Positions 16,761 through 60,491 of a stretch of DNA of 64,000 nt are shown here, piece by piece. Within the stretch, counting starts at the first letter, position 1. The number at the start of each line of letters is the position of its first letter. The notes below the pieces were generated by a model, which did no database searches, was not told the DNA's origin, and saw nothing but the letters and a program-made list of their open reading frames with translations. The translations under genes were made by a program, and so were the position numbers. Origin of the DNA: Candidatus Apopatosoma intestinale (GTDB lineage: Bacteria > Bacillota > Clostridia > Oscillospirales > CAG-272); the NCBI GenBank assembly GCA_003524145.1, contig DODZ01000035.1, positions 66,369 through 130,368 of the forward strand, in the 5' to 3' direction.

Positions 16761-16781
16761 TCGCGCGGAAAGGAGAAAGCA

Positions 16782-18974
16782 ATGGCAAAATCAAGAAAAA
16801 AGCAGATGATCGAAGAGCCGCAGGAAATTGCGGAGGTCAAGCTGCAGCCTATAACGGAAACAATAGAAAAAAACTATATGCCGTATGTCATGACGAGCAT
16901 AATATCACGCGCTATCCCCGCAATAGACGGCTTCAAGCCCTCGCACAGGAAGCTGCTCTATACCATGTATAAGATGGGACTGCTGACGGGTCAAAGGACA
17001 AAAAGTGCGAATGTTGTGGGTCAGACGATGCGCCTCAATCCGCATGGAGATATGGCGATATACGAGACAATGGTGCGTCTGACTCGCGGTAACGAAACAC
17101 TGCTTCATCCCTTTGTCGATTCCAAAGGGAGCTTCGGCAAGCAGTACAGCACGATGGCTTTCGCCGCCTCACGTTATACCGAGGTAAAGCTTGATAAATT
17201 CTGCGCCGAGATATTTTCGGGCATAGATAAAAACGCCGTCGATTTCATCGATAACTATGACAGCACCATGCGCGAGCCGACGATACTGCCGACGACTTTT
17301 CCGAATATACTCGTTTCGCCCAATTCGGGCGTTGCCGTCGGCATCGCCTGTGAAATAGCGTCCTTCAATCTTGCCGAGATATGCGACGGCACCATAGCGG
17401 CACTGCGCAATCCCGAGATAACGAGCGAGGAGCTCTCGGAGCTGATAAAGGCGCCGGATTTTGCGAGCGGTGCGTCCATTCTTTATAATAAAGAGGATAT
17501 TATCTCTATATATGAGACAGGCAGAGGCTCTGTCAATATGCGCTCGCGCTATGTCTATGACAAGGAGTCAAACTGCATTGATGTGCTGGAGATTCCTTTC
17601 GGCGTGACGATAGAGCAGATTATCGCAAAAATTACCGACCTCATCAAGCGCGGCGAGCTCAAAGAGGTGACGGATGTACGCGATGAGATAGACCTGCACG
17701 GCTTCAAGCTGACGCTCGACCTGCGCCGCGGCGCCGACCCCGAAAAGGTGATGGCGAAGCTTTTCAAAAAGACGCCGCTTGAGAGTAGCTATGCCTGCAA
17801 TTTCAATGTTATTGTTGATAACGAGGCGCGCCAGCTCGGCGTGCGGGAGATGCTGCTCGAATGGATAAAATTCCGCATGAGCTGTTATCGCCGCGAGCTT
17901 ATCTTCGAGAGGGACAAAAAGAGCGAAAAGCTTCATCTGCTTGTAGGTCTGGGAACGATACTTCTCGACCTTGACAAGGCAATAAAGATAGTCCGCGAGA
18001 CTGCGCGTGACAAGGATGTTATACCGAATCTGATGGCGGGCTTCAAGATAGACGAGGTACAGGCGGAATATATTGCCGAGATAAAGCTGCGCAATTTCAA
18101 CCGCGAATACATCATCGAACGTATAAAAGAAATAGAATCTCTGAAAAAAGAGATAGCGGAGCTTTCCGCCGTCATCGATTCCGATGCGAAGCTCAAGCGC
18201 AGAATAATAAAGCAGCTTGAGGAAATAAAAGAGAAGTACGGCATTCCCAGAAAGACGATGATAGTCTATGAGGACACGCTCCCGAAATACGATGCCGAGA
18301 GCTTTATAGAGAACTACAATGTAAAGCTTGTGCTCACAGAGGAGAGCTATTTCAAGAAGATAACGCTCCAGTCGCTGCGCGGAAACGACGAGCAGAAGCT
18401 CAAGGAGGGTGACAGCGTGCTTGAAACGCTCGACGCCGAAAATGTTTCACAGCTTATGTGCATAGGCACGCTCGGAAATATGTACCGCGCCAAGGTCAGC
18501 GATTTCTCAAACTGCAAGGCGAGCGAATTCGGCGATTATCTGCCCGCAAAGCTGAAATGCGACGGCGATGAGAAGATAAAGCTGATCCGTACGGACGTGG
18601 ATTATGAGAGCGGGGACAATCTTGTCTTTGTATTTGAAAACGGAAAGGCTGTGCGCATACCGATATCTGCCTATGCGACCAAGGCTCCGAGAAAGAAGCT
18701 GGTAAAGGCTTTCAATACAAATTCGCCGCTTGTCGGTGCCTTTTATGAGGAGGCGGGAAAGAGCTTTGATATTTTCATGAAGAGCGGGAGCAAGGGCATA
18801 ACGGTAAGCTCCAAGCTCATCCCGCAGAAAACCTCGAGAACCTCTGCGGGCGTGCAGATATTTACGCTCAAGGGCGGGCAGAAGCTCGAACTTGCCACGG
18901 TAAATCTCGAAAAATATCCGGAGTCCGCCTCGTGCAGAAAGATAAAGGTGCCTGCCACGGGCGTGACACTCTGA
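16782..18974 (+). CDS. Type IIA DNA topoisomerase subunit A (ParC/GyrA-like paralog)
   Basis: 730 aa. Contains AIPAIDGFKPSHRKLLY and HPHGD-like NPHGD. The active-site Tyr lies in AASRYTEVKL. It is shorter than typical GyrA and I saw no GyrA-box. Confidence 0.9.
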   Translation: MAKSRKKQMIEEPQEIAEVKLQPITETIEKNYMPYVMTSIISRAIPAIDGFKPSHRKLLYTMYKMGLLTGQRTKSANVVGQTMRLNPHGDMAIYETMVRLTRGNETLLHPFVDSKGSFGKQYSTMAFAASRYTEVKLDKFCAEIFSGIDKNAVDFIDNYDSTMREPTILPTTFPNILVSPNSGVAVGIACEIASFNLAEICDGTIAALRNPEITSEELSELIKAPDFASGASILYNKEDIISIYETGRGSVNMRSRYVYDKESNCIDVLEIPFGVTIEQIIAKITDLIKRGELKEVTDVRDEIDLHGFKLTLDLRRGADPEKVMAKLFKKTPLESSYACNFNVIVDNEARQLGVREMLLEWIKFRMSCYRRELIFERDKKSEKLHLLVGLGTILLDLDKAIKIVRETARDKDVIPNLMAGFKIDEVQAEYIAEIKLRNFNREYIIERIKEIESLKKEIAELSAVIDSDAKLKRRIIKQLEEIKEKYGIPRKTMIVYEDTLPKYDAESFIENYNVKLVLTEESYFKKITLQSLRGNDEQKLKEGDSVLETLDAENVSQLMCIGTLGNMYRAKVSDFSNCKASEFGDYLPAKLKCDGDEKIKLIRTDVDYESGDNLVFVFENGKAVRIPISAYATKAPRKKLVKAFNTNSPLVGAFYEEAGKSFDIFMKSGSKGITVSSKLIPQKTSRTSAGVQIFTLKGGQKLELATVNLEKYPESASCRKIKVPATGVTL

Positions 18975-37139: not shown

Positions 37140-38081
37140 ATGAGCGGCACGGTAAAGTCGGGGCTTGACACGGCAGGCAGTGTGCCGACGCTTGCGAAAA
37201 TACTGCGATATCTGCCGGAAAAATTTTCCTCTCCGATAGTAAAATATATCTCGGCAAACCCTGCGGCGGCATCGTTTATCTCTGAAATAAGACTGCGTCT
37301 CGGTGCGCTTTTTTCGATAACGGCGGCGGGGAAAAACATCTCGATTTTCGGTGGTGAGCGCATATATTGCACACCCGATGATATGTCTCAGACGCTCGGA
37401 CTTCTCTGCGAGGACTCGATACATACCTACGGCGACACGATGCGCGAGGGATATATCCTGCTTGACGGAGGCTACCGGATCGGCATCTGCGGTCATGCGA
37501 GATGCGAGGGAAATGCGCTCTCGGGCGTTTACGGTATCACGGCGATATCCGTGCGCATACCGCACGGGGTCTACGGCGTTTGCGATGAGATTCTGCCGCT
37601 CATACATGACGGCGGTAGAATAAACAGCACACTGATATATTCGCCTCCGGGTGTGGGCAAGACAACGCTGCTGCGCGATATCGCCGTGAAGCTGCGTGGC
37701 AGGCGCATTTCGCTTATCGATACGCGCGGCGAGCTTTTTACGGAGGAAAGCATGGCAAATACGCTCATAGATGTGCTCTACGGTTATCCGCGCGCCAAGG
37801 GGATAGAGATAGCCACGCGCACGATGTCGGCTGAGGTGATAATCTGCGATGAAATAGGCTCGGCGGAGGAAGCGGGAGCCATCCTCTCGGCGCAGAACAG
37901 CGGCGTGCCGCTCATCGCCTCCGCACATGCGGACAGCCTCTCTTCACTTTTCATGCGCCCGAATATAAGACTGCTGCGCGAACACGGGATTTTCCGTTAT
38001 TATATCGGGCTTTCCCGTGCGGCGGCGGACAGTAATTTCCGCTTTGAAATATACGATGCGGCGGGCGGCGAGCCATGCTGA
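37140..38081 (+). CDS. spoIIIAA: Stage III sporulation protein AA (ATPase)
   Basis: 313 aa. Walker A is SPPGVGKTTLLRDIA and Walker B-like is VIICDEIG. It is the first gene of an eight-gene spoIIIA-order cluster. Confidence 0.9.
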   Translation: MSGTVKSGLDTAGSVPTLAKILRYLPEKFSSPIVKYISANPAAASFISEIRLRLGALFSITAAGKNISIFGGERIYCTPDDMSQTLGLLCEDSIHTYGDTMREGYILLDGGYRIGICGHARCEGNALSGVYGITAISVRIPHGVYGVCDEILPLIHDGGRINSTLIYSPPGVGKTTLLRDIAVKLRGRRISLIDTRGELFTEESMANTLIDVLYGYPRAKGIEIATRTMSAEVIICDEIGSAEEAGAILSAQNSGVPLIASAHADSLSSLFMRPNIRLLREHGIFRYYIGLSRAAADSNFRFEIYDAAGGEPC

Positions 38082-38578
38082 AATATATCGGTGTGCTTGT
38101 TGTTTTCGTTTCATGCACGCTCTCGGGGCTGACGCTCTGCGAGAGGGAAAAGCTGAAGCTGCGCCAATGCGAGGCTTTTCTTTCGCTTTTCGAATATGTG
38201 AAAAATCAGATACATTATTTCCTCGCGCCGACGAAGCAGATTTACCGCGGATTTGAAGACCCCGTGCTCGCGAAAGCAGGCTTTCTTGCAAAGTTATGTG
38301 AGGAAAGCGGCGGAGTTTACAGAAACAACTGGATAGATGCCTTTGAGGCATGCGGCGAGAGTTTTTGTCTTTCTCCCTCGCAGGCGGAAATAGTGAAAGC
38401 TTTCGGTTCGCATATAGGCAAGAGCAATGAGCCGATGCAGATGAGAAATTTTGAATACTGCATCAAATCCATGGAGGCGGAGACGGCAAAGCAGAGGGCG
38501 CTCTGCGAGAAGAATACCAAGCTTTACCGCACGCTCGGCTTCACTCTCGGCGCCATGGCGGCGCTTCTGCTCATATGA
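38075..38578 (+). CDS. spoIIIAB: Stage III sporulation protein AB
   Basis: 167 aa. Has an N-terminal TM segment and overlaps spoIIIAA by 7 nt. Position and size fit SpoIIIAB. Confidence 0.85.
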   Translation: MLKYIGVLVVFVSCTLSGLTLCEREKLKLRQCEAFLSLFEYVKNQIHYFLAPTKQIYRGFEDPVLAKAGFLAKLCEESGGVYRNNWIDAFEACGESFCLSPSQAEIVKAFGSHIGKSNEPMQMRNFEYCIKSMEAETAKQRALCEKNTKLYRTLGFTLGAMAALLLI

Positions 38579-38601
38579 GCGAAAACAGGTGGTGATTTTA
38601 T

Positions 38602-38796
38602 TTGAATACGGAGCTTATTCTGAAAGTGGCAGGTGTCGGTCTGCTCGTGACGGTGGCGCATCAGATACTTTCCAAATCGGGCAGGGACGAGCAGGCACTT
38701 TTTGTCACTATAGCCGGCATAGTGATAGTTCTCCTGATGCTTGTCGGCGAGATAGGCGGGCTTTTTGACATGATAAAGGGGATATTCGGCTTATGA
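38602..38796 (+). CDS. spoIIIAC: Stage III sporulation protein AC
   Basis: 64 aa with two TM segments (KVAGVGLLVTVAHQIL...). TTG start is preceded by AGGTGG. Confidence 0.88.
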   Translation: MNTELILKVAGVGLLVTVAHQILSKSGRDEQALFVTIAGIVIVLLMLVGEIGGLFDMIKGIFGL

Positions 38797-39176
38797 CGGT
38801 GATAAAGCTTTGCGGCATAGCCGTTATCGGCGTCTGCGCCGCGCTCATAATGCGTGCGGCAAAAAGCGAGCTTGCCATTCCTGTCGGCGTGATAACCTGT
38901 GTAATTATCCTTGCCTCCGCCATATCATCCATGTATCCGATAGTCGCTTTTGCCGAGGGTTTGTCGCGGGAAAATTCTTATTCGCTTTATTTCTCCGCGG
39001 TTCTGAAGGCTCTCGGCATAGGAATAACCGCGCAGACCGCTGCAGATATATGCAGAGACAGCGGAGAGGGGGCTGTGGCGTCAAAGCTGGAGTTTGCCGC
39101 CAAGGTGGGCATACTTTTGCTCGGGCTACCTGTGGTACGCGAAATTTTGTCTCTGACGCAAAAAATACTTGAATGA
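38793..39176 (+). CDS. spoIIIAD: Stage III sporulation protein AD
   Basis: 127 aa polytopic membrane protein with ATGA overlap to spoIIIAC. Confidence 0.88.
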   Translation: MTVIKLCGIAVIGVCAALIMRAAKSELAIPVGVITCVIILASAISSMYPIVAFAEGLSRENSYSLYFSAVLKALGIGITAQTAADICRDSGEGAVASKLEFAAKVGILLLGLPVVREILSLTQKILE

Positions 39177-40288
39177 AAATGAAAAGAATAATAATTATTT
39201 TATGTATACTAATTGCAATATTATCTACTACCGTATATGCCGATGGCACGGACGAAAGCGAGACGGATTTCGGACAAGGCTCGGTATACGAGGGGCTTCC
39301 CGAGGAGATGCGTGAATACATACCGTCCGATTTTTTTACCGGCGGCGTATCGGGACTTTCGGAAAAGCTGAGCATCGGATTTTTCCTGCGGGCGGCAGGA
39401 AAGATGCTCTCGTCCTCTTTCCCGCGTGCGGTGAAAAGCTTTTCTTTTCTGCTCGGGATACTCGTCATTTCCTCTGTGCTCGGCGCGCTCGGCGACAGCA
39501 TCGCAAGCCCGTCGGTGAAGAGCGTATTTTCGTATATATCGTCGGTCTGCATCTGCGCCGCCGTCTATGAGGCGACAGGCTCGCTTTTCTCGCTGACGAA
39601 GGATTTTATCCTCGGGCTATCGGGCTTTGTCACGAAGCTGATGCCCGTGATGACGGCGCTCCTCTATGCGAGCGGCAAGGTCAGCACGGCGGCTGTTTCG
39701 GGCGGGATAATAACGGCGGCACTGGCTATACTCGAAAATATATGTGCGGGCGTGCTTTTTCCGCTCATACAGATGTGCTTTGCCATTTCGGCGGGCGGCG
39801 CCATGTGCGGAAACGCCGGACTCTCAGGGATAACGGCAACTGTGAAAAAGACGGTGACATATCTGCTTTCTTTTATCATGCTTCTGCTTTCGCTCACGCT
39901 CGCTTTTCAGAGCGTCATAACGAAAAGCGCGGATTCGCTGGCACTCAAGGGTGTGAAATTTGCCGTCGGCAGCTTCATTCCGATAGTCGGCGGCGCGATA
40001 AACGAGGCGCTCACCGCCATAACGGGAAGCATCGGCACGATTCGTTCGGCTGTAGGAATCGCTGGCGCGGCGGCGGTGCTTTTCATGACCGTGTCGCCTA
40101 TTATATACATACTCTTAAACAAGGCACTGCTTGAGCTTTCGGCTTCTTTTGCCGTGATGCTCGGGCTGGAGAGGGAAAGCCGATTTCTCTCGGATACTGC
40201 GGGAATAGCGGGCTTTTTCGTTTCGCTTTCCGCTGTAACCGGCGTATTTTTTATCTTTTCGCTTTCGGTGCTCGCCGGCATTTCATAG
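39173..40288 (+). CDS. spoIIIAE: Stage III sporulation protein AE
   Basis: 371 aa with a signal peptide and multiple TM segments. Overlaps spoIIIAD by 4 nt. Confidence 0.88.
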   Translation: MKMKRIIIILCILIAILSTTVYADGTDESETDFGQGSVYEGLPEEMREYIPSDFFTGGVSGLSEKLSIGFFLRAAGKMLSSSFPRAVKSFSFLLGILVISSVLGALGDSIASPSVKSVFSYISSVCICAAVYEATGSLFSLTKDFILGLSGFVTKLMPVMTALLYASGKVSTAAVSGGIITAALAILENICAGVLFPLIQMCFAISAGGAMCGNAGLSGITATVKKTVTYLLSFIMLLLSLTLAFQSVITKSADSLALKGVKFAVGSFIPIVGGAINEALTAITGSIGTIRSAVGIAGAAAVLFMTVSPIIYILLNKALLELSASFAVMLGLERESRFLSDTAGIAGFFVSLSAVTGVFFIFSLSVLAGIS

Positions 40289-40297
40289 GGTGATATC

Positions 40298-40783
40298 ATG
40301 GAAGAAATAAAAAACTATGTCTATATGCTCGTCTGTGTGCTTGCGGTAAGCGGACTGGCGATAAATCTTTCTCCCGAGGGAGAAATGAAAAAATATATAA
40401 GATATATCTGCCTGCTTTGCACGGCGGCGGCAATCTGCATTCCGACAGTACAGGTGATAGGAGGTATTTCCGGTTATATTTCCGATATCGGCGACGACGC
40501 CGCATATGAAACGGGCGAAAATCACGATGCGGAGGGGATACTCATAGAGCGGACGCGCAAAAACATTGCCGCATCTGTGCGGAATTACATCTGTGAAAAG
40601 TACGGCATTGAAAGGGAGAGCGTCAGCGTCGGCGTGACGCTCGACGGGAGCGACACATCATCGGTTGAGATAAAGAAGCTGACGTTGACTCTTCCGAAGA
40701 GCGCACCTGCGGAAAAGATAAAAGCGGAGCTTGATGAAATGTTTCTTCACAAAACAGAAATAGAAATTATCTATGGGAGGTGA
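40298..40783 (+). CDS. spoIIIAF: Stage III sporulation protein AF
   Basis: 161 aa with two N-terminal TM segments. Operon position fits SpoIIIAF. Confidence 0.8.
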   Translation: MEEIKNYVYMLVCVLAVSGLAINLSPEGEMKKYIRYICLLCTAAAICIPTVQVIGGISGYISDIGDDAAYETGENHDAEGILIERTRKNIAASVRNYICEKYGIERESVSVGVTLDGSDTSSVEIKKLTLTLPKSAPAEKIKAELDEMFLHKTEIEIIYGR

Positions 40784-40788
40784 CGGAA

Positions 40789-41295
40789 ATGAAAACAAAG
40801 CTTAAGGACATGCCGCCGAAGCTGAAGCTCGTCATACTTGCCGCGCTCGGTATTTTCGGCGTTTTGCTTGTGATAATAGGCTCATCGGGCGGCAAAAAGG
40901 CGGCGGCGCAAAAAAATACCGCAGAAAATACGGAAGATAACGCAACTTTGGCATATATAGAGAGCCTCGAGAATAAAATTAGAACCATAACGAGGCAAAT
41001 AACAGGTTCGGACAATTCGAGCGTTATCGTAACAGTCAGCGACGGGGTGCAGTATGTTTATGTGTCTGACGAAAAATCGGACGAAGGCGGCACGGACAGG
41101 GAATACATAACCGTGCGCAAGGAAAACGGTGCGGGCACACTCATACTGCAAAAGGAAATATATCCTCCCGTTGAAGGCGTTTCCGTTGCGTGCCGCGGCG
41201 GCGATGACCCGGGTATTCAATCAAAGCTTATCGCGGTCATATCGACAGCGCTGGGACTTCCGAGCAACAGAATCTGTATTGTCGGGGTAAAATAA
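40789..41295 (+). CDS. spoIIIAG: Stage III sporulation protein AG
   Basis: Start set to ATG at 40789, preceded by GGGAGG with an 8-nt spacer. The ORF-track GTG at 40780 lies inside the RBS. Has an N-terminal TM segment. The C-terminus reads PPVEGVSVACRGGDDP...IVG, as in the SpoIIIAG ring-forming domain. Confidence 0.85.
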   Translation: MKTKLKDMPPKLKLVILAALGIFGVLLVIIGSSGGKKAAAQKNTAENTEDNATLAYIESLENKIRTITRQITGSDNSSVIVTVSDGVQYVYVSDEKSDEGGTDREYITVRKENGAGTLILQKEIYPPVEGVSVACRGGDDPGIQSKLIAVISTALGLPSNRICIVGVK

Positions 41296-41320
41296 ATTTT
41301 TATATTTAAGGAGATTTATT

Positions 41321-41974
41321 ATGAGAAACGAAGAGAGAGCCGCTATCAGAGCCGGCATGGCAAATCAGACAGAAGGAGAGGAAACCGTACTCAGCCTTCC
41401 GGAGGCAAAGGAGCACAACTTCAAATTCGGCAGTATTTTCACCGGTGACAGCGTGAAAAAGGGCATCAGGAAATTCGGCGTGCGCAATCTTGTGATAGTG
41501 CTTTCGGTTCTGCTTATCGGTGCCGCAGTATATGTAAACTGGGCTATCTTCGGCAAGACCGAAAAGCCCGATTCGGGTAAGGACCAGCCCTCCGGTAATG
41601 TCAATGTAGATGACAAGACGAATACGGAATCAAATTATTTTGCCGCATCGCAGATAGAGAGACAGCGCGCAAGAGATGAGGCTATGGAGGTTCTTCAGGG
41701 TGTTGTCGACGATGCAAAAAGTCTTGACGCGGCAAAAGAACAGGCACTTGCCGATATAACGGCAATAGCGGCAACCATCGAAAAGGAATCCAATATCGAG
41801 ACTCTCATAAAAGCAAAGGGCTTTGAAGAATGCGTGGCAGTCATAAACGGCGACAAGGCAAACATTATCGTAAAGAGTGAGGGGCTCAAGCCCAATCAGC
41901 TCTCGCAGATACTCGAAATCGTATATAAACAGGCAAATATTCTTCCCGCAAATGTGACGATAGCAGAGAAATAA
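41321..41974 (+). CDS. spoIIIAH: Stage III sporulation protein AH (SpoIIIAH-like)
   Basis: 217 aa with an N-terminal TM segment. The C-terminal YscJ/FliF-like region is IETLIKAKGFEECVAVINGDKANIIV. RBS AAGGAG is present. Confidence 0.85.
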   Translation: MRNEERAAIRAGMANQTEGEETVLSLPEAKEHNFKFGSIFTGDSVKKGIRKFGVRNLVIVLSVLLIGAAVYVNWAIFGKTEKPDSGKDQPSGNVNVDDKTNTESNYFAASQIERQRARDEAMEVLQGVVDDAKSLDAAKEQALADITAIAATIEKESNIETLIKAKGFEECVAVINGDKANIIVKSEGLKPNQLSQILEIVYKQANILPANVTIAEK

Positions 41975-41981
41975 AAAATGA

Positions 41982-42011
41982 GGAGCTGCGGCAAAATTGC
42001 CGCAGCTCCTT
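41982..42011. terminator. Bidirectional terminator between spoIIIAH and glyQS
   Basis: AGGAGCTGCGGCA-aaa-TTGCCGCAGCTCCT gives a stem of about 13 bp, flanked by A-run and T-run. Confidence 0.7.
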
Positions 42012-56622: not shown

Positions 56623-56766
56623 TTGTTCCTCCGAGAGAGAATTTTGCAAAACATGCGAGATAAATATACCATAAAAAAGGGCTATTTGTCAATAGCTATT
56701 GTCATATTGCTGTATAAATCTGTTATCATTCCGCGGCGAAAAAATTGCCGTATCGGAAAAAGGCTA

Positions 56767-56795
56767 TTGTCAAAGCAAAATCACTGTGGTATAAT
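56767..56795 (+). promoter_or_regulatory. Sigma-A promoter with extended -10
   Basis: TTGTCA (56767-56772), 17 nt, TGgTATAAT (TATAAT at 56790-56795). Confidence 0.5.
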
Positions 56796-56837
56796 AAAAA
56801 TGATAACTATTGTTGCTCTGACGGGAGGGAGGCAGAT

Positions 56838-56990
56838 ATGGAATTTTTTGCCGAATTTTTACTGGAAATATATATGCAGCTGATGTTTCTCGTCGTACCG
56901 AAGAAAAAGAGAGGCAACAAAAAATATAGAGTAATCGCAACGCTTATTGCAATTGCGGTTTTGCTTGGCGTAATGGCGCTTGCACTATGA
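56838..56990 (+). CDS. Hypothetical 50-aa membrane peptide
   Basis: ATG at 56838 is preceded by GGGAGGGAGG. The sequence is MEFFAEFLLEIYMQLMFLVVPKKKRGNKKYRVIATLIAIAVLLGVMALAL, giving two hydrophobic segments with a basic loop. The ORF-track version starts earlier without an RBS. Confidence 0.5.
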   Translation: MEFFAEFLLEIYMQLMFLVVPKKKRGNKKYRVIATLIAIAVLLGVMALAL

Positions 56991-57135
56991 GGCGCTATAC
57001 TCATTTCGAAATATAAAAATCCCCTCGGCATCATTCCCATCGCGGTAGCGGCTGTTATTTCTCTCTCAGATTCTTGCCGGATTTGTATTGTACGATAAAA
57101 ACCATTGATAAAAACGGCATATCAAAGAATTACAG

Positions 57136-57176
57136 AATCCCTCTTTTCGTGTGCACAGCACCCGAAAAGAGGGATT
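57136..57176. terminator. Bidirectional terminator (14-bp stem)
   Basis: AATCCCTCTTTTCG-13 nt loop-CGAAAAGAGGGATT followed by TATTTG. Lies between convergent genes. Confidence 0.7.
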
Positions 57177-57196
57177 TATTTGTATCGGTATTTCCG

Positions 57197-58081
57197 TTAT
57201 TTGAATTCATCCTCGTGCGAGCGGAAAAAGTCGCGGTAGACACGGACATTCGGAAGCTCTGTCCAACGCTTATCGCAAACGGGATGGGCGTCAAGGTCGT
57301 ATATTTTCGCGCCTTTCATCGAGAGGATGAAAGGGCTGTGCGTCGCGATGATGAACTGACAGCCGTAAAACCGCGCAGAATCCTCGAGAAACCGCGCAAG
57401 CTCAAGCTGATATTCGGCAGAAAGGCTGTTTTCCGGCTCGTCGAGAAGATAGAGCGCATCTTCCTTTATCTCGCTTGTAAAATAGCGGAATGCGCTTTCC
57501 CCGTTGGATTTTTCGGTCACATTCTGCGGCAGGCGGCGCTTGGCATACTTGTTTTTCGTCGTGTGACGCGCTTCGTTGTGGCGGCGAAGCTCATCGTATT
57601 CCGATAAATCGCGCATGAGAAAGGGCGGCTCATTCGGGTCGTTCAGCTTTTCGTATTCGCTGAAAATCTCCTCGCGGCGCCTGTCCACGCCGTCGTTTAT
57701 CGCGCGCATGTCGAGCAGAAAATCGAAAACCTCGTCGCTTGTTATGATGCGGCTTTCGCTCGGCAGGTAGCTGCGCGTCAGCCCATATCTGCAGTATGAG
57801 AGATACTCCTCAAAATAAGGCGTGCGGTTGAATGGCGCCTTGCGGATAAGTCCCAGTTTTTCCGCCACGATATTGAGAAATGTCGATTTTCCCGAGCCGT
57901 TTCCGCCGTAAAAAACGGTTATCGGCGCAAATTCCGCATGGGAGAAATATTTTTCGGGGAAAATCTTGAAAGGGTAAACGCTTTCGGCAAAGCAGGTCAT
58001 TTCCACCTTATAATTAAAGGAAAGCACATATTCCGCTTCGTCGCGCTCGGAGGCGGGGTCGAAATATTCGAGATATGTCAT
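57197..58081 (-). CDS. Orphan ABC/SMC-type P-loop ATPase (AAA_21/COG3910-like), no TM or effector domain
   Basis: Start set to ATG at 58081 (MTYLEYF), which overlaps the repressor stop (ATGA). Walker A is FYGGNGSGKST, Walker B/D-loop is LYLLDEPENSLS and H-loop is IATHSPF. A charged insertion separates the two halves. Confidence 0.85.
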   Translation of the reverse strand: MTYLEYFDPASERDEAEYVLSFNYKVEMTCFAESVYPFKIFPEKYFSHAEFAPITVFYGGNGSGKSTFLNIVAEKLGLIRKAPFNRTPYFEEYLSYCRYGLTRSYLPSESRIITSDEVFDFLLDMRAINDGVDRRREEIFSEYEKLNDPNEPPFLMRDLSEYDELRRHNEARHTTKNKYAKRRLPQNVTEKSNGESAFRYFTSEIKEDALYLLDEPENSLSAEYQLELARFLEDSARFYGCQFIIATHSPFILSMKGAKIYDLDAHPVCDKRWTELPNVRVYRDFFRSHEDEFK

Positions 58082-58827
58082 CTTTTCAGCTTGCCGATGA
58101 CCTTGCCGAAGCATGTGACGCTCACGGCAGTGTCGAGCGGAATGTCGCTGTAGTCGGGATTGAGTGAGATGAGCCTGTTCCCGCCGTACTGCTTGAAGTA
58201 GCTTTCGCCGTCCACGGCGAAAATTCCGAGCTCGCCTATTTCGATATTCTTTCGGTCGGAAACGAGGAGGATATCTCCGTCGCTGTATTTGGGCATCATG
58301 CTGTTTCCGCGAACCTTAATCGCGAAATCCGCCATGTCTGTTGTCGGGCTGCTGTATACGGAAATATTAGTATAGTCGCTGTCGGCAAGGTAGGAGCCGG
58401 TGCCGGCGGAGGCGGCTGTGGAATAGAGGCGGAGAGTACGTATTTTTCGCGCCGCCTTGATGATGTCGTCTTTCTGCGGCTCGGAATCGCGCTTCGCCGA
58501 GGCTTCCTTTGCCTTTTGCAGGCGGCTGTATTCCTTATTTATAATATAGTCGGCGGTCTCCTTGCCGCTCGCGTCAAGCTCGGAATATTTGCGCATGATG
58601 TCCGGCAGGGAAGCGCCGCCGCTGTATGAAGAGGTGCCGAGAAGCTCGTCCAGCGTGCAGGAGAAGGCACCCGAAAGCGCTGTCAGTGTAGAGAGCTTGG
58701 GATCGTTCGTTGCGCCCGAAAGCAACTTGTTGAGAGTGCCGAGAGATATTCCCGAGAGCTCAGAGAGACTTTCATTCGTGAGTTTTCTTTCCTTTTTTAT
58801 TTTCTTTATGCTCTCAAGCCATTCCAT
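58078..58827 (-). CDS. XRE-family HTH repressor fused to S24 LexA/CI-type self-cleaving peptidase domain
   Basis: Start set to ATG at 58827 (MEWLESIKKIKK), preceded by GGAGG with an 8-nt spacer. The HTH is LTNESLSELSGISLGTLNKLLSG. The linker contains Ala-Gly (AASAGTG). The S24 core is VRGNSMMPKYSDGDILLV...FKQY. Confidence 0.85.
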   Translation of the reverse strand: MEWLESIKKIKKERKLTNESLSELSGISLGTLNKLLSGATNDPKLSTLTALSGAFSCTLDELLGTSSYSGGASLPDIMRKYSELDASGKETADYIINKEYSRLQKAKEASAKRDSEPQKDDIIKAARKIRTLRLYSTAASAGTGSYLADSDYTNISVYSSPTTDMADFAIKVRGNSMMPKYSDGDILLVSDRKNIEIGELGIFAVDGESYFKQYGGNRLISLNPDYSDIPLDTAVSVTCFGKVIGKLKR

Positions 58828-58992
58828 ATCAAAAACCTCCGATTTTATTATAAATAGAAATATTCCGCTTGTCTGCTTCATAATTATATTATTGCAAATG
58901 TATTCTATCACAAAATTTCGGTTTTGTAAAGAGGTTTTTGAAAATAATTTATATTCAGCGGTAAAAATTTTGAAGAAAATTATAAAAAACTA

Positions 58993-59021
58993 TTGACAAA
59001 ACGCGAAATGAGTAGTATAAT
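58993..59021 (+). promoter_or_regulatory. Consensus sigma-A promoter for the divergent 103-aa ORF
   Basis: TTGACA (58993-58998), exactly 17 nt, TATAAT (59016-59021). Confidence 0.55.
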
Positions 59022-59082
59022 CAAATTACAAATTATATTTGACGGTAATTTTTATACATAAATATAAACTCGGAGGGCAAAA

Positions 59083-59394
59083 ATGATTACTGAAAGCGGA
59101 TTTGAAATAATTGGCGGTTGCAAGGTGTACGAATATGAGGTTGCCTGCCCGAATTATACGCGGGCAAAAAAAGCAGGCGGCTTTTTTGCCGCAGTGCTCG
59201 CGCTCTTTTCCGCGTTTTTTGCTTTTCTCGGAAATGTGCTTTGCACATTCGCCGCAGGCGCGGCGGGCGGTAAAAAGACGCGATCCGCCGCAGGTAAGAA
59301 GAAGCTTGCGCATGTATTTGCGGGATTCGGAATCTTCGTTCTGTGCGCCGCCTGCACTCTTGCCGGAGTCGGTCTTGCCGCTCTGCTGATGTGA
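59083..59394 (+). CDS. Hypothetical small membrane protein (103 aa, two TM segments, Lys-rich loop; holin-like topology)
   Basis: RBS GGAGGG lies 6 nt upstream of the ATG. Hydrophobic segments are FFAAVLALFSAFFAFLGNVLCTFAA and VFAGFGIFVLCAACTLAGVGLAALL, separated by GGKKTRSAAGKKK. Other frames here are also open because of GC bias. This frame was chosen for its RBS, promoter and hydrophobicity. Confidence 0.6.
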   Translation: MITESGFEIIGGCKVYEYEVACPNYTRAKKAGGFFAAVLALFSAFFAFLGNVLCTFAAGAAGGKKTRSAAGKKKLAHVFAGFGIFVLCAACTLAGVGLAALLM

Positions 59395-59522
59395 CTGAAG
59401 CTTCGGTATGCCCGAAGCGGAAAATAAAATCCAAGTCAAAAATGAGGACTTTGCTTTAAATCGCAGATTGATACTTCATATATAATATCATCTGACGAAA
59501 TAATCTCCCCCCTGATGTAAAT

Positions 59523-59550
59523 CCCCTGCCGAAGCAGTTATCGGCAGGGG
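59523..59550 (-). terminator. Hairpin downstream of the NUDIX-glycosylase gene
   Basis: CCCCTGCCGA-8 nt-TCGGCAGGGG gives a 10-bp stem. On the minus strand it is followed by ATTTAC, a weak U-tract. Confidence 0.45.
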
Positions 59551-59591: not shown

Positions 59592-60491
59592 CTATTTCAG
59601 GATAATCTTCCATTCCGCAGTCAGCTTCTCGAGCGAAGCCGAGGCGTTTGCGGGGCTTGTAGACGGGAGCTTCACGGCTCGTATGCCCGTTTTTTGCAGG
59701 AGAAGTTTGTCATAGAGGCGCGAGGCGGTGCCGCCGTTTGCAAAAATGTGCGTGATTTTGCTTTTCGCCAGTATTTCCGAGAGGTCATTAGGTGCGGCGT
59801 GCTTTATCGAGCTGTCGGAGGAGCCACTTATTTCGCACGAGGCTATGACATCCCAGAGAGCAATTCCGTGGCGCAGGAGCATAGCGCGCTTTTCGTCGAT
59901 GCTTTCGGGGATATTTTCACAGAGTATCGCGGCAAGCACGCGCCAGAATCGGTTTTGCGGATGCGCATAGTAAAATCCCGCTTCGCGCGATTTTACCGAT
60001 GGAAAGCTGCCGAGAATAAGAACGCGCGAATTTTTATCCCATACGGGCGCGATATTATGCACGAAATGTTCGCTTGCCGGACAGACGGCACCGCTTGCGA
60101 TAAGACGCGCGTAGTTTACCATGAGATAGATATTGCCTGCGCCCGCAAAGCGGGAAGTATCCGAGAAATCCGAATCCGCAGGAATCCATTCGAGCCTGTT
60201 TTCTTTCCCGAAAACGGGCTTTTCGTTTTTCAGCGTGCCGCTCCAGAATTCAAGGAGCAGATCTTCTTCGCAATATGTGAGGTCGATGAGATGGGAGATG
60301 CTTATATCTTCGCGGCTTACGGCGGTTTCCTCAAAAAGCTCGCGATATGCCGCCGCTTCGCTTTCTTCACCTTCTTCAATGCTGCCGCCGACGAAATTAA
60401 GCTTGCCCTTATGCGGTGCTTTTTTTCGCAGGCACATGAGTATTTTGCTTCTGTCGGGTGAAAAGACGAGTATCAGATTGTATTTTTTCAT
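59592..60491 (-). CDS. Fusion protein: N-terminal NUDIX hydrolase + C-terminal hypoxanthine/deoxyinosine DNA glycosylase (UDG superfamily)
   Basis: 299 aa. The Nudix box is GGSIEEGEESEAAAYRELFEETAV. The C-terminal half reads VLILGSFPSVKSREAGFYYAHPQNRFWRVL...LPSTSPANA, typical of the TIGR04274-type glycosylase. Confidence 0.8.
   Translation of the reverse strand: MKKYNLILVFSPDRSKILMCLRKKAPHKGKLNFVGGSIEEGEESEAAAYRELFEETAVSREDISISHLIDLTYCEEDLLLEFWSGTLKNEKPVFGKENRLEWIPADSDFSDTSRFAGAGNIYLMVNYARLIASGAVCPASEHFVHNIAPVWDKNSRVLILGSFPSVKSREAGFYYAHPQNRFWRVLAAILCENIPESIDEKRAMLLRHGIALWDVIASCEISGSSDSSIKHAAPNDLSEILAKSKITHIFANGGTASRLYDKLLLQKTGIRAVKLPSTSPANASASLEKLTAEWKIILK

What the first reader, a model, noticed from the sequence alone, without database searches (positions are those of the whole stretch)
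57136..59550. Insulated 2.4-kb module: LexA/CI-type XRE-S24 repressor coupled to an orphan ABC-type ATPase, facing a holin-like peptide under a consensus promoter
Seen in sequence: (1) 58827-58078 (-) encodes an XRE HTH, a linker with Ala-Gly (AASAGTG) and an S24 core (GNSM...K). (2) Its stop overlaps the ATG of the next gene (ATGA, 58078-58081). That gene is an ABC/SMC-like ATPase (GGNGSGKST; LYLLDEPENSLS; ATHSPF) with a charged insertion and no TM, nuclease or other effector domain. (3) A 103-aa ORF runs divergently. It has a GGAGGG RBS and a perfect TTGACA-17-TATAAT promoter, and encodes two hydrophobic helices separated by GGKKTRSAAGKKK, a class II holin-like topology. (4) The 255-bp control region is AT-rich and holds a near-direct repeat: TTTTGAAAATAATTTATA (58936-58953) and TTTTGAAGAAAATTATA (58968-58984), just upstream of the -35. 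(5) Strong hairpins bound the module at 57136-57176 and 59523-59550. Established knowledge: S24 repressors (LexA, lambda CI) self-cleave on a RecA*/damage signal. TM-less ABC-type ATPases act as sensor or motor subunits in several anti-phage systems (Septu PtuA, Gabija GajA, PARIS AriA), normally alongside a nuclease partner, which is missing here. Inference: this may be a damage- or infection-triggered switch that derepresses a membrane-active peptide, with the ATPase as sensor or modulator. That would make it a candidate abortive-infection or programmed-death module, or a minimal prophage-immunity remnant. I cannot match it to any named system.
Basis: partly seen in the sequence, partly recalled or inferred. 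Interest (0 to 1): 0.72.

Follow-up and report, generated by a model that had tools for sequence, protein, structure and literature searches.

The report
LexA-like repressor with small membrane-protein target
This is a chromosomal self-cleaving (LexA/CI-type) repressor paired with a small, uncharacterised membrane protein gene it most likely controls; the pair is conserved in a narrow group of gut Clostridia, and the neighbouring ATPase is a lineage-specific add-on, not part of an anti-phage system.

Summary

Comparative data change the reading.
- The conserved unit is a pair: the repressor plus the divergent small protein. It occurs in 14 of 14 lineages examined, searched from either gene.
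- The small ORF is under purifying selection (dN/dS 0.14-0.26). It belongs to a narrow, unannotated family whose defining feature is an N-terminal beta-hairpin motif.
- The intergenic region holds two conserved divergent promoters and conserved boxes (TTACCG-N4-CGGTAA, or TTACCG-N3-AATATAA). In the window these lie at 58949-58964 and 59033-59048.
- The ATPase follows the repressor in 3 of 14 lineages. Its many homologues in Clostridia are stand-alone genes with unrelated neighbours.
- There is no nuclease partner, prophage, PADLOC system or holin homology.

Best model: a LexA-like switch of the IrvR/HdiR/UmuDAb or LexA-YneA/SosA kind that derepresses a small membrane-anchored protein. The ATPase is a co-transcribed passenger. 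The interest is modest.

The parts
57136..57176 (-). Strong hairpin 20 nt after the ATPase stop. Probable terminator of the repressor-ATPase transcript, with a weak U tract.
   Evidence: -29.8 kcal/mol, z -5.85, 0 of 200 shuffles fold as well. The consensus terminator scan did not call it because it lacks a T run.
57197..58081 (-). 294-aa ABC/OLD-type ATPase (AAA_21/AAA_15), translationally coupled to the repressor. A lineage-specific passenger in this operon.
   Evidence: for family and fold. Searches show homologues are stand-alone with variable neighbours. dN/dS 0.06-0.07.
58078..58827 (-). 249-aa LexA-like repressor: XRE HTH (residues 7-62), linker with Ala141-Gly142, S24 domain with Ser176 and Lys212.
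   Evidence: Pfam; those residues are invariant in 28 homologues; phrog_4 transcriptional repressor, 9.5e-31; only 27-39% identity to phage CI-like repressors.
58902..58930 (-). Repressor promoter: TTTACA, 17-nt spacer, TG-extended TAGAAT.
   Evidence: TTTACAA and TG-T-A--AT are invariant or nearly so in 10 orthologous intergenic regions.
58949..58964 (-). Operator-like box O2, TTACCGCTGAATATAA, between the two -35 elements.
   Evidence: exact match, one of only two in 64 kb; same position in orthologous loci.
58993..59021 (+). Promoter of the small-protein gene: TTGACA, 17-nt spacer, TATAAT.
   Evidence: 12/12. Both hexamers are conserved in the intergenic alignment.
59033..59048 (-). Operator-like box O1, TTACCGTCAAATATAA, in the small gene's leader about 12 nt after the -10 and 84 bp from O2.
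   Evidence: The 84-bp O1-O2 spacing is identical in window, L081 and L083.
59083..59394 (+). 103-aa small protein: N-terminal beta-hairpin motif (FEIIGGCKVYEYEVACP), a basic stretch, and two hydrophobic helices ending at the C-terminus. The family is uncharacterised.
   Evidence: dN/dS 0.14-0.26. No Pfam, NCBIfam, PADLOC or PHROG hit. 33 representatives in 1.84 billion proteins.
59400..59418 (+). Short 7-bp hairpin directly after the small ORF's stop. A possible weak terminator.
   Evidence: the segment's z-score is only -1.7.
59523..59550 (.). G+C-rich 11-12-bp hairpin between the small ORF and the convergent NUDIX-UDG gene. Probably a shared or bidirectional terminator.
   Evidence: z -3.1 on + and -3.6 on -. 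It lies about 40 nt past the stop of the 59592-60491(-) gene.

Best explanation
The functional unit is a two-gene switch. A chromosomal LexA-like repressor (XRE HTH plus S24 autoprotease) is transcribed divergently from a small protein gene.

Inferred mechanism:
- Repressor dimers bind TTACCG-N4-CGGTAA-type boxes. In this organism the boxes are half-degenerate (TTACCG-N3-AATATAA).
- One box lies in the leader of the small gene, just downstream of its consensus promoter (O1, 59033-59048).
- The other lies between the two -35 elements (O2, 58949-58964), 84 bp or eight helical turns away. This is compatible with cooperative binding that silences the very strong small-gene promoter and moderates the repressor's own promoter.
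- A stress signal then triggers self-cleavage at Ala141-Gly142 by the Ser176/Lys212 dyad. The signal would be RecA* after DNA damage, or another stress as for IrvR and PrlP.
- Repression is lost and the 103-aa protein is made. It is anchored in the membrane by its two hydrophobic helices.
- Its conserved N-terminal beta-hairpin is the likely active part. Its action is unknown. The closest analogy is the small membrane proteins encoded divergently from lexA in Gram-positive bacteria (YneA, SosA, ChiZ), which halt division.

The ATPase is a member of a large, strongly conserved family of stand-alone ABC-type ATPases of Clostridia. In this genus-level clade only, it sits behind the repressor gene and is co-translated with it, so its expression follows the repressor promoter. 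It is not a required component of the switch.

Shown here: domain content, conserved catalytic and cleavage residues, conservation of the pair, conserved promoters and boxes, purifying selection on the small ORF, and non-conservation of the ATPase link.

Inferred only: that this repressor binds these boxes, what the inducing signal is, membrane insertion, and the effect of the small protein.
For: Pair conservation:
- Starting from repressor homologues (54-76% identity), every locus with upstream sequence has a divergent small ORF carrying the motif I-[IM]-E-G-C-x-V-[YHF]-x-[YF]-x-V. These are L081, L083, L084, L086, L087, L091, L165-L169 and L171/172.
- Starting from four small-protein homologues, an HTH_3+Peptidase_S24 gene is adjacent and divergent in 8 of 9 places. 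In the ninth (L176) the divergent neighbour is cut off by the contig end and has no Pfam annotation.
- Together the pair is present in 14 of 14 lineages.

Repressor competence:
- A141, G142, S176 and K212 are invariant in 28 sequences.

Cis elements:
- The alignment of 10 intergenic regions has invariant TGTCAA, TTTACAA and TG-extended -10 elements, plus boxes at fixed positions.
- Box density is 9.9 per kb in 13 intergenic regions against 0.097 per kb in 83 kb of flanks.
- In the window the two exact matches are the only ones in 64 kb.

Small ORF is a real gene:
- dN/dS is 0.14 (L081 vs L083) and 0.20-0.26 (against the window).
- At least 62 homologous clusters were found, all 50-155 aa.

Chromosomal, not mobile:
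- Most loci have Na_Ala_symp and groES/groEL flanks.
- The window carries gyrBA and other core genes. G+C is 0.485 for the module against 0.50 for the window.

ATPase independence:
- 80 genomic loci of homologues have 216 neighbour clusters among 242 neighbours. None has a clear XRE-S24 gene: one weak 23-bit hit lies 1.7 kb away.
- The nearest outgroup ATPase (64% identity) sits between a sigma factor gene and aspS/hisS.
- The 11 pair-bearing lineages outside the window clade have no ATPase.

Literature:
- Chromosomal LexA-like regulators with an adjacent primary target are described in PMC7101444, PMC12273997 and PMC7273328.
- Small TM proteins encoded divergently from lexA act as division inhibitors (PMC6851548).
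Against: - No experiment or expression data exist, and all related sequences come from uncultured MAGs or metagenomes.
- In the window clade, the box that sits inside the small-gene promoter spacer in six other lineages is degenerate, as is the box after the repressor's -10. O2 does not overlap either core promoter, so repression here would rest on O1 and on cooperativity.
- Basic residues flank both sides of helix 1, so the membrane topology is ambiguous.
- Some family members have one helix (the 60-aa group) or none (L167, P0302). The conserved function therefore resides in the N-terminal hairpin and need not be a membrane activity.
- The 4-bp overlap and strong constraint on the ATPase (dN/dS 0.06-0.07) leave room for an acquired functional link in this clade.
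- Whether these organisms also have a canonical LexA is unknown.
Confidence: 0.6

Rival explanations
1. One reading: a three-gene abortive-infection or programmed-death module. The ABC-type ATPase senses infection or damage, the repressor is inactivated, and a holin-like peptide kills the cell.
For: The ATPase matches AAA_21/AAA_15 and PADLOC PtuA, AriA and GajA models. ATGA coupling to the repressor is kept in L081, and the genes are adjacent in L083. The small protein has two hydrophobic helices.
Against: - The strongest PADLOC matches (PtuA, AriA) cover mainly the last 55-70 residues around Walker B and the H-loop. Only weaker generic AAA_21-type models (AbiLi, PDC-M01A) align along most of the protein.
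- Foldseek gives only generic ABC, OLD and SMC hits with TM 0.3-0.4.
- There is no nuclease, Toprim or HNH partner in any locus.
- The ATPase is absent from 11 of 14 lineages with the pair.
- ATPase homologues are stand-alone among housekeeping genes.
- No holin family matches, there is no charged C-terminal tail, and there is no phage match.
- The pair sits at a conserved core-chromosome position, not in a defence island or mobile element.
Confidence: 0.06
2. The small protein is a feedback component of the switch rather than a downstream effector. It would be an anti-repressor, co-repressor or Cro-like antagonist whose N-terminal beta-hairpin binds the repressor, in the way DdrR works with UmuDAb or IrvA and Cro work with their CI-like partners.
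For: The only strongly conserved part of the family is the 22-residue N-terminal hairpin. The hydrophobic C-terminal part varies from two helices to none. Pairing with the repressor is strict in both directions. Small partners encoded divergently from S24 regulators are known (PMC7273328, PMC7101444).
Against: Most members, including this one, keep hydrophobic helices under purifying selection, which a soluble regulator does not need. No DNA-binding fold is predicted. No interaction data exist.
Confidence: 0.17
3. A decayed prophage immunity region: a CI-like repressor with a leftover lysis or membrane gene and an accessory ATPase moron, with no current cellular role.
For: The repressor's best PHROG is the phage transcriptional repressor family (phrog_4, 9.5e-31). 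It aligns to streptococcal and clostridial phage CI-like repressors. The divergent-promoter layout resembles CI/Cro.
Against: - Identity to phage repressors is only 27-39%.
- The small protein has no phage match.
- There are no integrase, att or phage structural genes within the 64-kb window or in any related locus.
- Synteny next to groESL is conserved across many lineages.
- All three genes are under purifying selection.
- G+C is normal.
- An ancient domestication, as proposed for IrvR/IrvA (PMC7101444), is compatible with the best explanation rather than with a functionless remnant.
Confidence: 0.07
4. In this clade the ATPase has acquired a real functional link to the switch. For example, it could be a stress-induced ATPase whose dosage must follow the repressor promoter, or a modulator of repressor stability. 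The local module would then be a three-part derivative of the two-gene switch.
For: A 4-bp start/stop overlap in the window, L084 and L081, with adjacency in L083 despite different outer flanks. The weak ATPase ribosome-binding site implies coupling. The ATPase is under strong constraint.
Against: - The trio clade is narrow.
- The slot after the repressor holds other unrelated genes elsewhere: a 185-aa gene with no Pfam match in L091, L177 and L178, and a 132-aa gene in L171. This suggests a permissive position.
- The ATPase shows no clade-specific change in the alignment and keeps every invariant residue of the stand-alone family.
- No shared regulatory motif was found upstream of the stand-alone homologues.
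Confidence: 0.12

Closest known systems
Chromosomal XRE-HTH/S24 'LexA-like' regulators: HdiR (Lactococcus, streptococci), IrvR/IrvA (S. mutans), PrlP (S. suis), PrtR (P. aeruginosa)
   Same: The domain order is the same (XRE HTH, Ala-Gly linker, S24 Ser/Lys dyad). They are core-genome genes rather than prophage genes, and they repress an adjacent or small set of targets relieved by autocleavage (PMC7101444, PMC12273997).
   Different: The target here is a small hydrophobic protein of an unannotated family, not a Cro-like regulator (IrvA) or umuC-type genes. The operator motif differs: TTACCG-N4-CGGTAA here, against CCTGAAWCT for PrlP. The inducing signal is unknown. The family is confined to a narrow group of uncultured Clostridia.
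lexA with a divergent small membrane division inhibitor (YneA in B. subtilis, SosA in S. aureus, ChiZ in M. tuberculosis, DivS in C. glutamicum)
   Same: A small, fast-evolving membrane protein gene is transcribed divergently from a self-cleaving S24 repressor gene, with operator boxes over its promoter. PMC6851548 describes this synteny as typical despite lack of sequence similarity among the inhibitors.
   Different: The repressor is not LexA: it has an XRE HTH instead of the LexA winged helix, and TIGR00498 scores 27.8 against a cutoff of 110.95. The boxes are not Cheo boxes. The small protein has an N-terminal soluble hairpin and two C-terminal helices with no extracellular or LysM domain, whereas those inhibitors have a single N-terminal TM and an extracellular C-terminus. 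Division inhibition is untested.
UmuDAb/DdrR of Acinetobacter
   Same: An S24-type self-cleaving repressor is encoded divergently from a small lineage-specific gene, with shared operators in the intergenic region (PMC7273328).
   Different: DdrR is a soluble co-repressor and UmuDAb is a UmuD homologue controlling error-prone polymerases. There is no sequence similarity to the small protein here.
ABC-type ATPases of defence systems (Septu PtuA, PARIS AriA, Gabija GajA, OLD nucleases)
   Same: The ATPase superfamily is the same (AAA_15/AAA_21), with Walker A, a signature-like SNGES, Walker B/D-loop and H-loop. These are the nearest solved structures by sequence and fold.
   Different: This ATPase is much shorter (294 aa against 450-650). 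It has no Toprim domain, no long coiled-coil insertion and no nuclease partner gene. The PDB sequence-profile matches are limited to about 55 residues, and Foldseek alignments are longer but weak (TM 0.3-0.4). Homologues are stand-alone genes in housekeeping contexts.
Phage lambda-type CI/Cro immunity switch
   Same: Back-to-back promoters with multiple repressor boxes and an autoregulated S24 repressor. The spacing of 84 bp, eight helical turns, is compatible with cooperative binding.
   Different: There is no prophage. The divergent gene is not a DNA-binding Cro. Identity to phage repressors is 27-39%.

Membership tests
LexA-like / Peptidase S24 self-cleaving repressors (CI, HdiR, IrvR type) | N-terminal DNA-binding domain plus C-terminal Peptidase_S24 domain | tested here: met
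   HTH_3 at residues 7-62 (E 1.2e-9, above cutoff). Peptidase_S24 at residues 135-244 (E 5.1e-19, 68.5 bits against cutoff 23.3).
LexA-like / Peptidase S24 self-cleaving repressors (CI, HdiR, IrvR type) | Ser/Lys catalytic dyad and Ala-Gly scissile bond in the linker | tested here: met
   S176 (GNSM), K212, and A141-G142 (SAGTG) are invariant in 28 homologues of 45-89% identity.
LexA-like / Peptidase S24 self-cleaving repressors (CI, HdiR, IrvR type) | Actual autocleavage, stimulated by RecA* or another signal | not testable with these tools
   Needs protein biochemistry or in vivo blots.
LexA-like / Peptidase S24 self-cleaving repressors (CI, HdiR, IrvR type) | Operators at its own and target promoters (autoregulation) | tested here: inconclusive
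   Conserved TTACCG-type boxes occur at fixed positions in 13 orthologous intergenic regions, about 100-fold enriched over flanks. Binding was not shown. In the window the box after the repressor's -10 is degenerate.
Canonical LexA (SOS master repressor) | LexA winged-helix DNA-binding domain and full-length LexA equivalog score | tested here: not met
   TIGR00498 scores 27.8 bits against a cutoff of 110.95 and matches the S24 part only. The N-terminus is an XRE HTH.
Canonical LexA (SOS master repressor) | Gram-positive LexA (Cheo) boxes GAAC-N4-GTTC at its own promoter | tested here: not met
   None occurs in the window's 255-bp control region. The boxes there are TTACCG-type.
Septu / PARIS / Gabija-type ATPase-nuclease defence systems | ABC-type ATPase of the AAA_15/AAA_21 class | tested here: met
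   AAA_21 at 2.2e-15 and AAA_15 at 1.3e-11. This is generic to the superfamily.
Septu / PARIS / Gabija-type ATPase-nuclease defence systems | Nuclease partner gene or fused Toprim/HNH domain | tested here: not met
   The protein is 294 aa with the ATPase core only. The operon ends at a terminator 20 nt after its stop. Neighbours are a small ORF, a fucosidase and a GDSL lipase. No recurrent partner appears in 80 homologous loci.
Septu / PARIS / Gabija-type ATPase-nuclease defence systems | Full-length similarity to the system's ATPase model | tested here: not met
   The PtuA, AriA and GajA PADLOC models align mainly over residues about 185-266 of 294. NCBIfam PtuA scores 26 bits against a cutoff of 500.
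Holins (class II) | Small protein with two transmembrane helices | tested here: inconclusive
   Two hydrophobic helices are predicted, but basic residues flank both sides of helix 1. Family members with one helix or none exist.
Holins (class II) | Hydrophilic, highly charged C-terminal tail; homology to a holin family; adjacent endolysin in a lysis cassette | tested here: not met
   The protein ends ...GVGLAALLM inside helix 2. No Pfam, PHROG or NCBIfam hit. No phage match. No endolysin nearby.
SOS-induced small membrane division inhibitors (YneA, SosA, ChiZ, DivS) | Gene divergently adjacent to the S24 repressor gene that controls it | tested here: met
   The arrangement is present in 14 of 14 lineages. 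Control by the repressor is inferred from the boxes.
SOS-induced small membrane division inhibitors (YneA, SosA, ChiZ, DivS) | Single N-terminal TM with an extracellular C-terminal part (LysM in YneA and ChiZ) | tested here: not met
   The protein has an N-terminal soluble beta-hairpin, two C-terminal helices, and no LysM or other domain.
SOS-induced small membrane division inhibitors (YneA, SosA, ChiZ, DivS) | Induced by DNA damage and blocks septation | not testable with these tools
   Needs expression and microscopy experiments.

The most novel reading that the evidence does not exclude
The repressor and small-protein pair would be an undescribed stress checkpoint of a lineage of uncultured gut Clostridia. 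A non-LexA, XRE-type self-cleaving repressor would release a new family of small membrane-anchored proteins. Their conserved cytoplasmic beta-hairpin would arrest growth or division, or permeabilise the membrane. This would be functionally analogous to YneA, SosA or TisB but unrelated in sequence and architecture. In one genus a conserved orphan ABC-type ATPase would have been recruited into the same stress-inducible operon.
Probability: 0.25. Interest if true: 0.55.

Novelty: new variant of a known kind. Interest (0 to 1): 0.35.

Why it matters
If the model holds, it adds an XRE-type LexA-like switch in anaerobic gut Clostridia, which are poorly studied. The switch comes with a defined candidate operator (TTACCG-N4-CGGTAA) and a new family of small effector proteins, which standard annotation misses or labels hypothetical.

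It is also a caution for defence-system prospecting. An orphan AAA_21 ATPase coupled to a repressor looked like a sensor-effector module. Comparative genomics shows the ATPase to be a lineage-specific passenger from a widespread stand-alone family.

That ATPase family is itself unexplained. It is about 295 aa, shows about 70% mean column identity in a 29-sequence alignment, and has thousands of members.

Tried and rejected
- PADLOC, NCBIfam, Pfam and PHROGs on all three proteins gave no named system and nothing at all for the small protein.
- PDB sequence search and Foldseek on the ATPase model gave only generic ABC, OLD, SMC, AriA, GajA and PtuA similarity with TM 0.3-0.4.
- I looked for a conserved partner of the ATPase in 80 genomic loci and found none: 216 clusters among 242 neighbours.
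- I tested whether stand-alone ATPase genes carry LexA (Cheo) boxes or the TTACCG box upstream. Cheo boxes occur in 2 of 80, and TTACCG or CGGTAA in 12 of 80, which is chance level.
- A k-mer search and scans for known motifs (CIRCE, CtsR, Rex, Fur/PerR, Spo0A) upstream of those genes found nothing.
- I searched the window for further TTACCG-type boxes as a possible regulon. Only matches with 1-2 mismatches turned up, near chance numbers.
- I searched the window for a second S24 or LexA protein and found none.
- Phage collection searches were uninformative or negative: the repressor is 27-39% identical to CI-like repressors, and the small protein has no match.
- The cluster look-up for organism names returned only 'Eubacteriales bacterium' MAG labels.
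- I did not run a fold search on the small-protein model, because pLDDT 68 on a helical hairpin would give meaningless matches.
- Literature searches found no description of this pair or of the ATPase family.

Full report
**1. The observation**

The sequence features are real.
- ORF 58078-58827(-) starts at an ATG preceded by GGAGG. It encodes 249 aa with HTH_3/HTH_26 at residues 7-64 and Peptidase_S24 at 135-244.
- Its TGA overlaps the ATG of a 294-aa ORF at 57197-58081(-), as ATGA at 58078-58081.
- That ORF is an AAA_21/AAA_15 ABC-type ATPase with Walker A (GGNGSGKST), Walker B/D-loop (LYLLDEPENSLS) and H-loop (ATHSPF).
- The divergent 103-aa ORF at 59083-59394(+) has a GGAGGG ribosome-binding site. 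Its promoter, TTGACA-17-TATAAT at 58993-59021, is the only perfect promoter match in the region.
- The 255-bp spacer is 24% G+C in a 50% G+C window.
- Both hairpins fold far better than shuffles: z -5.85 for 57136-57176 and z -3.1/-3.6 for 59523-59550.
- The second hairpin lies just past the stop of the convergent NUDIX-UDG gene, so it is not specifically a boundary of this module.

**2. What is conserved and what is not: the ATPase**

The ATPase has thousands of homologues. All 8000 scored candidates passed E 1e-3, and the top 120 below the closest relatives are 58-64% identical and about 295 aa. A 29-sequence alignment has 70% mean column identity.

I fetched 80 loci from species-representative genomes (Lachnospiraceae, Oscillospiraceae, Christensenellales, Peptococcaceae, Syntrophomonas, even Jeotgalibaca).
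- No clear XRE-S24 gene lies near the ATPase gene. One weak 23-bit hit lies 1.7 kb away.
- The 242 flanking genes fall into 216 clusters with no recurrent partner.
- The nearest outgroup ATPase (64% identity) sits between a sigma-factor gene and aspS/hisS.
- Only the closest relatives (80-99% identity: L081, L083, L084) keep the repressor upstream and a divergent 103-105-aa ORF. L081 and L083 have different outer flanks from the window.

**3. What is conserved and what is not: the pair**

The repressor and small ORF travel together everywhere I could look.
- Repressor orthologues of 54-65% identity came from a metagenome scan and from contig look-ups (L086, L087, L091, L165-L169, L171/172). 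All have a divergent small ORF upstream and no ATPase.
- The small ORFs share an N-terminal motif. The window has FEIIGGCKVYEYEVACP and the main clade has MKYYDARIIEGCCVFSYxVxxP. A K/R-rich stretch and hydrophobic helices follow.
- The reverse test started from four small-protein homologues. It found an adjacent, divergent HTH_3+Peptidase_S24 gene in 8 of 9 places. In the ninth (L176) the divergent neighbour is cut off by the contig end and has no Pfam annotation.
- Counting distinct lineages, the pair is present in 14 of 14 and the ATPase in 3 of 14.
- Most loci outside the window clade lie next to a Na+/alanine symporter gene and groES/groEL. That is a fixed core-chromosome position.
- In some lineages other unrelated genes occupy the slot behind the repressor: a 185-aa gene in L091 and L177, and a 132-aa gene in L171.

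**4. The small ORF is a gene**

- dN/dS is 0.14 between L081 and L083 and 0.20-0.26 against the window. The repressor gives 0.09-0.15 and the ATPase 0.06-0.07.
- A profile search of 5.8 billion proteins found 62 clusters.
- An exhaustive HMM search of 1.84 billion representatives found only 33, all short. The family is real but narrow.
- It has no Pfam, NCBIfam, PADLOC or PHROG match and no phage match.
- AF2 (pLDDT 68) predicts a beta-hairpin at residues 4-18 and two long helices at 31-62 and 72-102.
- Variants exist with one helix (the 60-aa group) or none (L167, P0302). The hairpin, not the membrane part, is therefore the family's constant.

**5. The control region**

Aligning ten orthologous intergenic regions shows two conserved back-to-back promoters.
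- The small-gene promoter has -35 TTGACA and its -10.
- The repressor promoter has TTTACAA and a TG-extended -10. In the window these lie at 58930-58925 and 58907-58902.
- Conserved boxes sit at fixed positions. They are perfect palindromes in some loci (TTACCGCTCGCGGTAA in L086, CTACCGTAAACGGTAA in L169) and half-degenerate elsewhere (TTACCG-N3-AATATAA).

Statistics on the boxes:
- Across 13 loci the boxes occur at 9.9 per kb in the intergenic regions against 0.097 per kb in 83 kb of flanks.
- In the window the two exact matches are the only ones in 64 kb: O2 at 58949-58964 and O1 at 59033-59048.
- O1 lies in the small gene's leader about 12 nt after the -10.
- O2 lies between the two -35 elements.
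- The O1-O2 spacing is 84 bp in the window, L081 and L083.

Differences in the window clade:
- Six other lineages have an additional box inside the small-gene promoter spacer, and six (a partly different set) have one just after the repressor's -10. Both are degenerate in the window.
A-tract flanks are loosely conserved, but they are not the conserved core.

**6. Repressor competence**

Ala141-Gly142 (SAGTG), Ser176 and Lys212 are invariant in 28 homologues. The protein is not canonical LexA: TIGR00498 scores 27.8 against a cutoff of 110.95. It is only 27-39% identical to phage CI-like repressors. The window is core chromosome (gyrB/gyrA, helicase-nuclease genes, a spoIIIA-like operon, glyS). 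It has no second S24 protein and no phage genes.

**7. Mechanism**

The best-supported reading is a two-gene LexA-like switch.
- The repressor binds the TTACCG boxes and silences the very strong small-gene promoter, probably also moderating its own promoter.
- Autocleavage at Ala141-Gly142 after a stress signal derepresses both.
- The small protein, membrane-anchored in this lineage, is then produced.

Chromosomal XRE/S24 regulators with an adjacent primary target are established: IrvR/IrvA, HdiR, PrtR (PMC7101444), PrlP (PMC12273997) and UmuDAb/DdrR (PMC7273328). Small, fast-evolving membrane proteins encoded divergently from lexA are the SOS division inhibitors of Gram-positives (PMC6851548).

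The signal (RecA-dependent or not) and the activity of the small protein are inferred only. I rate a checkpoint- or toxin-type effector as somewhat more likely than a feedback regulator. The TM-less variants keep the feedback option open.

The ATPase is best seen as a passenger. It belongs to a conserved stand-alone family of unknown function, and here it is expressed from the repressor promoter. An acquired functional link in this clade cannot be excluded.

**8. Comparison and novelty**

The regulatory logic is a known kind. The new elements are the small-protein family, the operator motif, and the clade-specific coupling of an orphan ABC-type ATPase. Nothing supports membership in Septu, PARIS, Gabija or Abi systems, or in the holins (see the membership table).

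**9. Verdict**

A repressor-controlled small membrane protein is plausible. The ATPase as sensor, the holin reading and the defence reading are not supported. Interest is modest at 0.35. The most novel reading still open is a new stress checkpoint effector family in gut Clostridia, at about 0.25 probability.

Noticed in passing
L171:2778-3000, L173:2736-3000, L177:2769-3000 (small-gene leader): In one subclade the position of box O1 in the small gene's leader is occupied by a sequence one mismatch from a Gram-positive LexA (Cheo) box: GCGAACATTTATTCG, GCGAACATTCATTCG and GTGAACATCCATTCG. This could mean dual control by a canonical LexA, and so a DNA-damage link. It could also reflect only shared ancestry of three related loci.
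   Followed up: partly
L167:2631-2816, L169:1126-1308; P0302, P0279, P0290, P0292, P0293, P0296: Some members of the small-protein family are only 60-61 aa. They keep the N-terminal beta-hairpin motif but have a single C-terminal helix or no hydrophobic helix at all. The membrane part is therefore dispensable in some lineages.
   Followed up: partly
L165-L169, L173, L177-L179, L085-L087, L091: Outside the window clade, the pair sits at a conserved chromosomal position: a convergent Na+/alanine symporter gene followed by groES-groEL on the repressor side. In several of these loci a Flavin_Reduct gene lies on the small-protein side. The window clade has lost this context.
   Followed up: partly
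L091:4789-5346, L177:1464-2021, L178:1464-2021, L171:4109-4507: The slot immediately downstream of the repressor, in the same orientation, holds different unannotated genes in other lineages: 185 aa with no Pfam match in three loci and 132 aa in one. The window has the ATPase in this slot.
   Followed up: no
window 56745-56990 (+): A small hydrophobic ORF lies between the ATPase terminator and the fucosidase gene. It is listed as 81 aa, and an internal ATG would give about 50 aa (MEFFAEFLLEIYMQLMFLVVPKKKRGNKKYRVIATLIAIAVLLGVMALAL). A near-consensus TG-extended promoter (TTGTCA-17-TATAAT, 56767-56795) lies within the listed frame. The same position in L084 was called as a 90-aa gene with no Pfam match.
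   Followed up: no
window 59592-60491 (-): A 299-aa fusion of a NUDIX hydrolase domain and a uracil-DNA glycosylase-superfamily domain (PF00293 + PF03167 in the identical gene of L084). It is convergent with the small ORF and shares the 59523-59550 hairpin.
   Followed up: no
L001-L080 and P0001-P0120: The ATPase family itself is unexplained. It is about 295 aa, with a conserved N-terminal extension (YPFKIFP) and 72 invariant positions among the 29 aligned sequences. Its members are stand-alone genes with unrelated neighbours, and no shared upstream motif was found.
   Followed up: partly
window 57083-57098 (-): A weak match, with 2 mismatches, to the operator pattern (TTATCGTACAATACAA) just beyond the ATPase terminator. 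It is probably chance.
   Followed up: no
window 38000-42000 and 14760-18974: The window carries a spoIIIA-like operon of small membrane proteins and gyrB-gyrA. The organism is therefore a spore-forming Firmicute, and this region is core chromosome.
   Followed up: no
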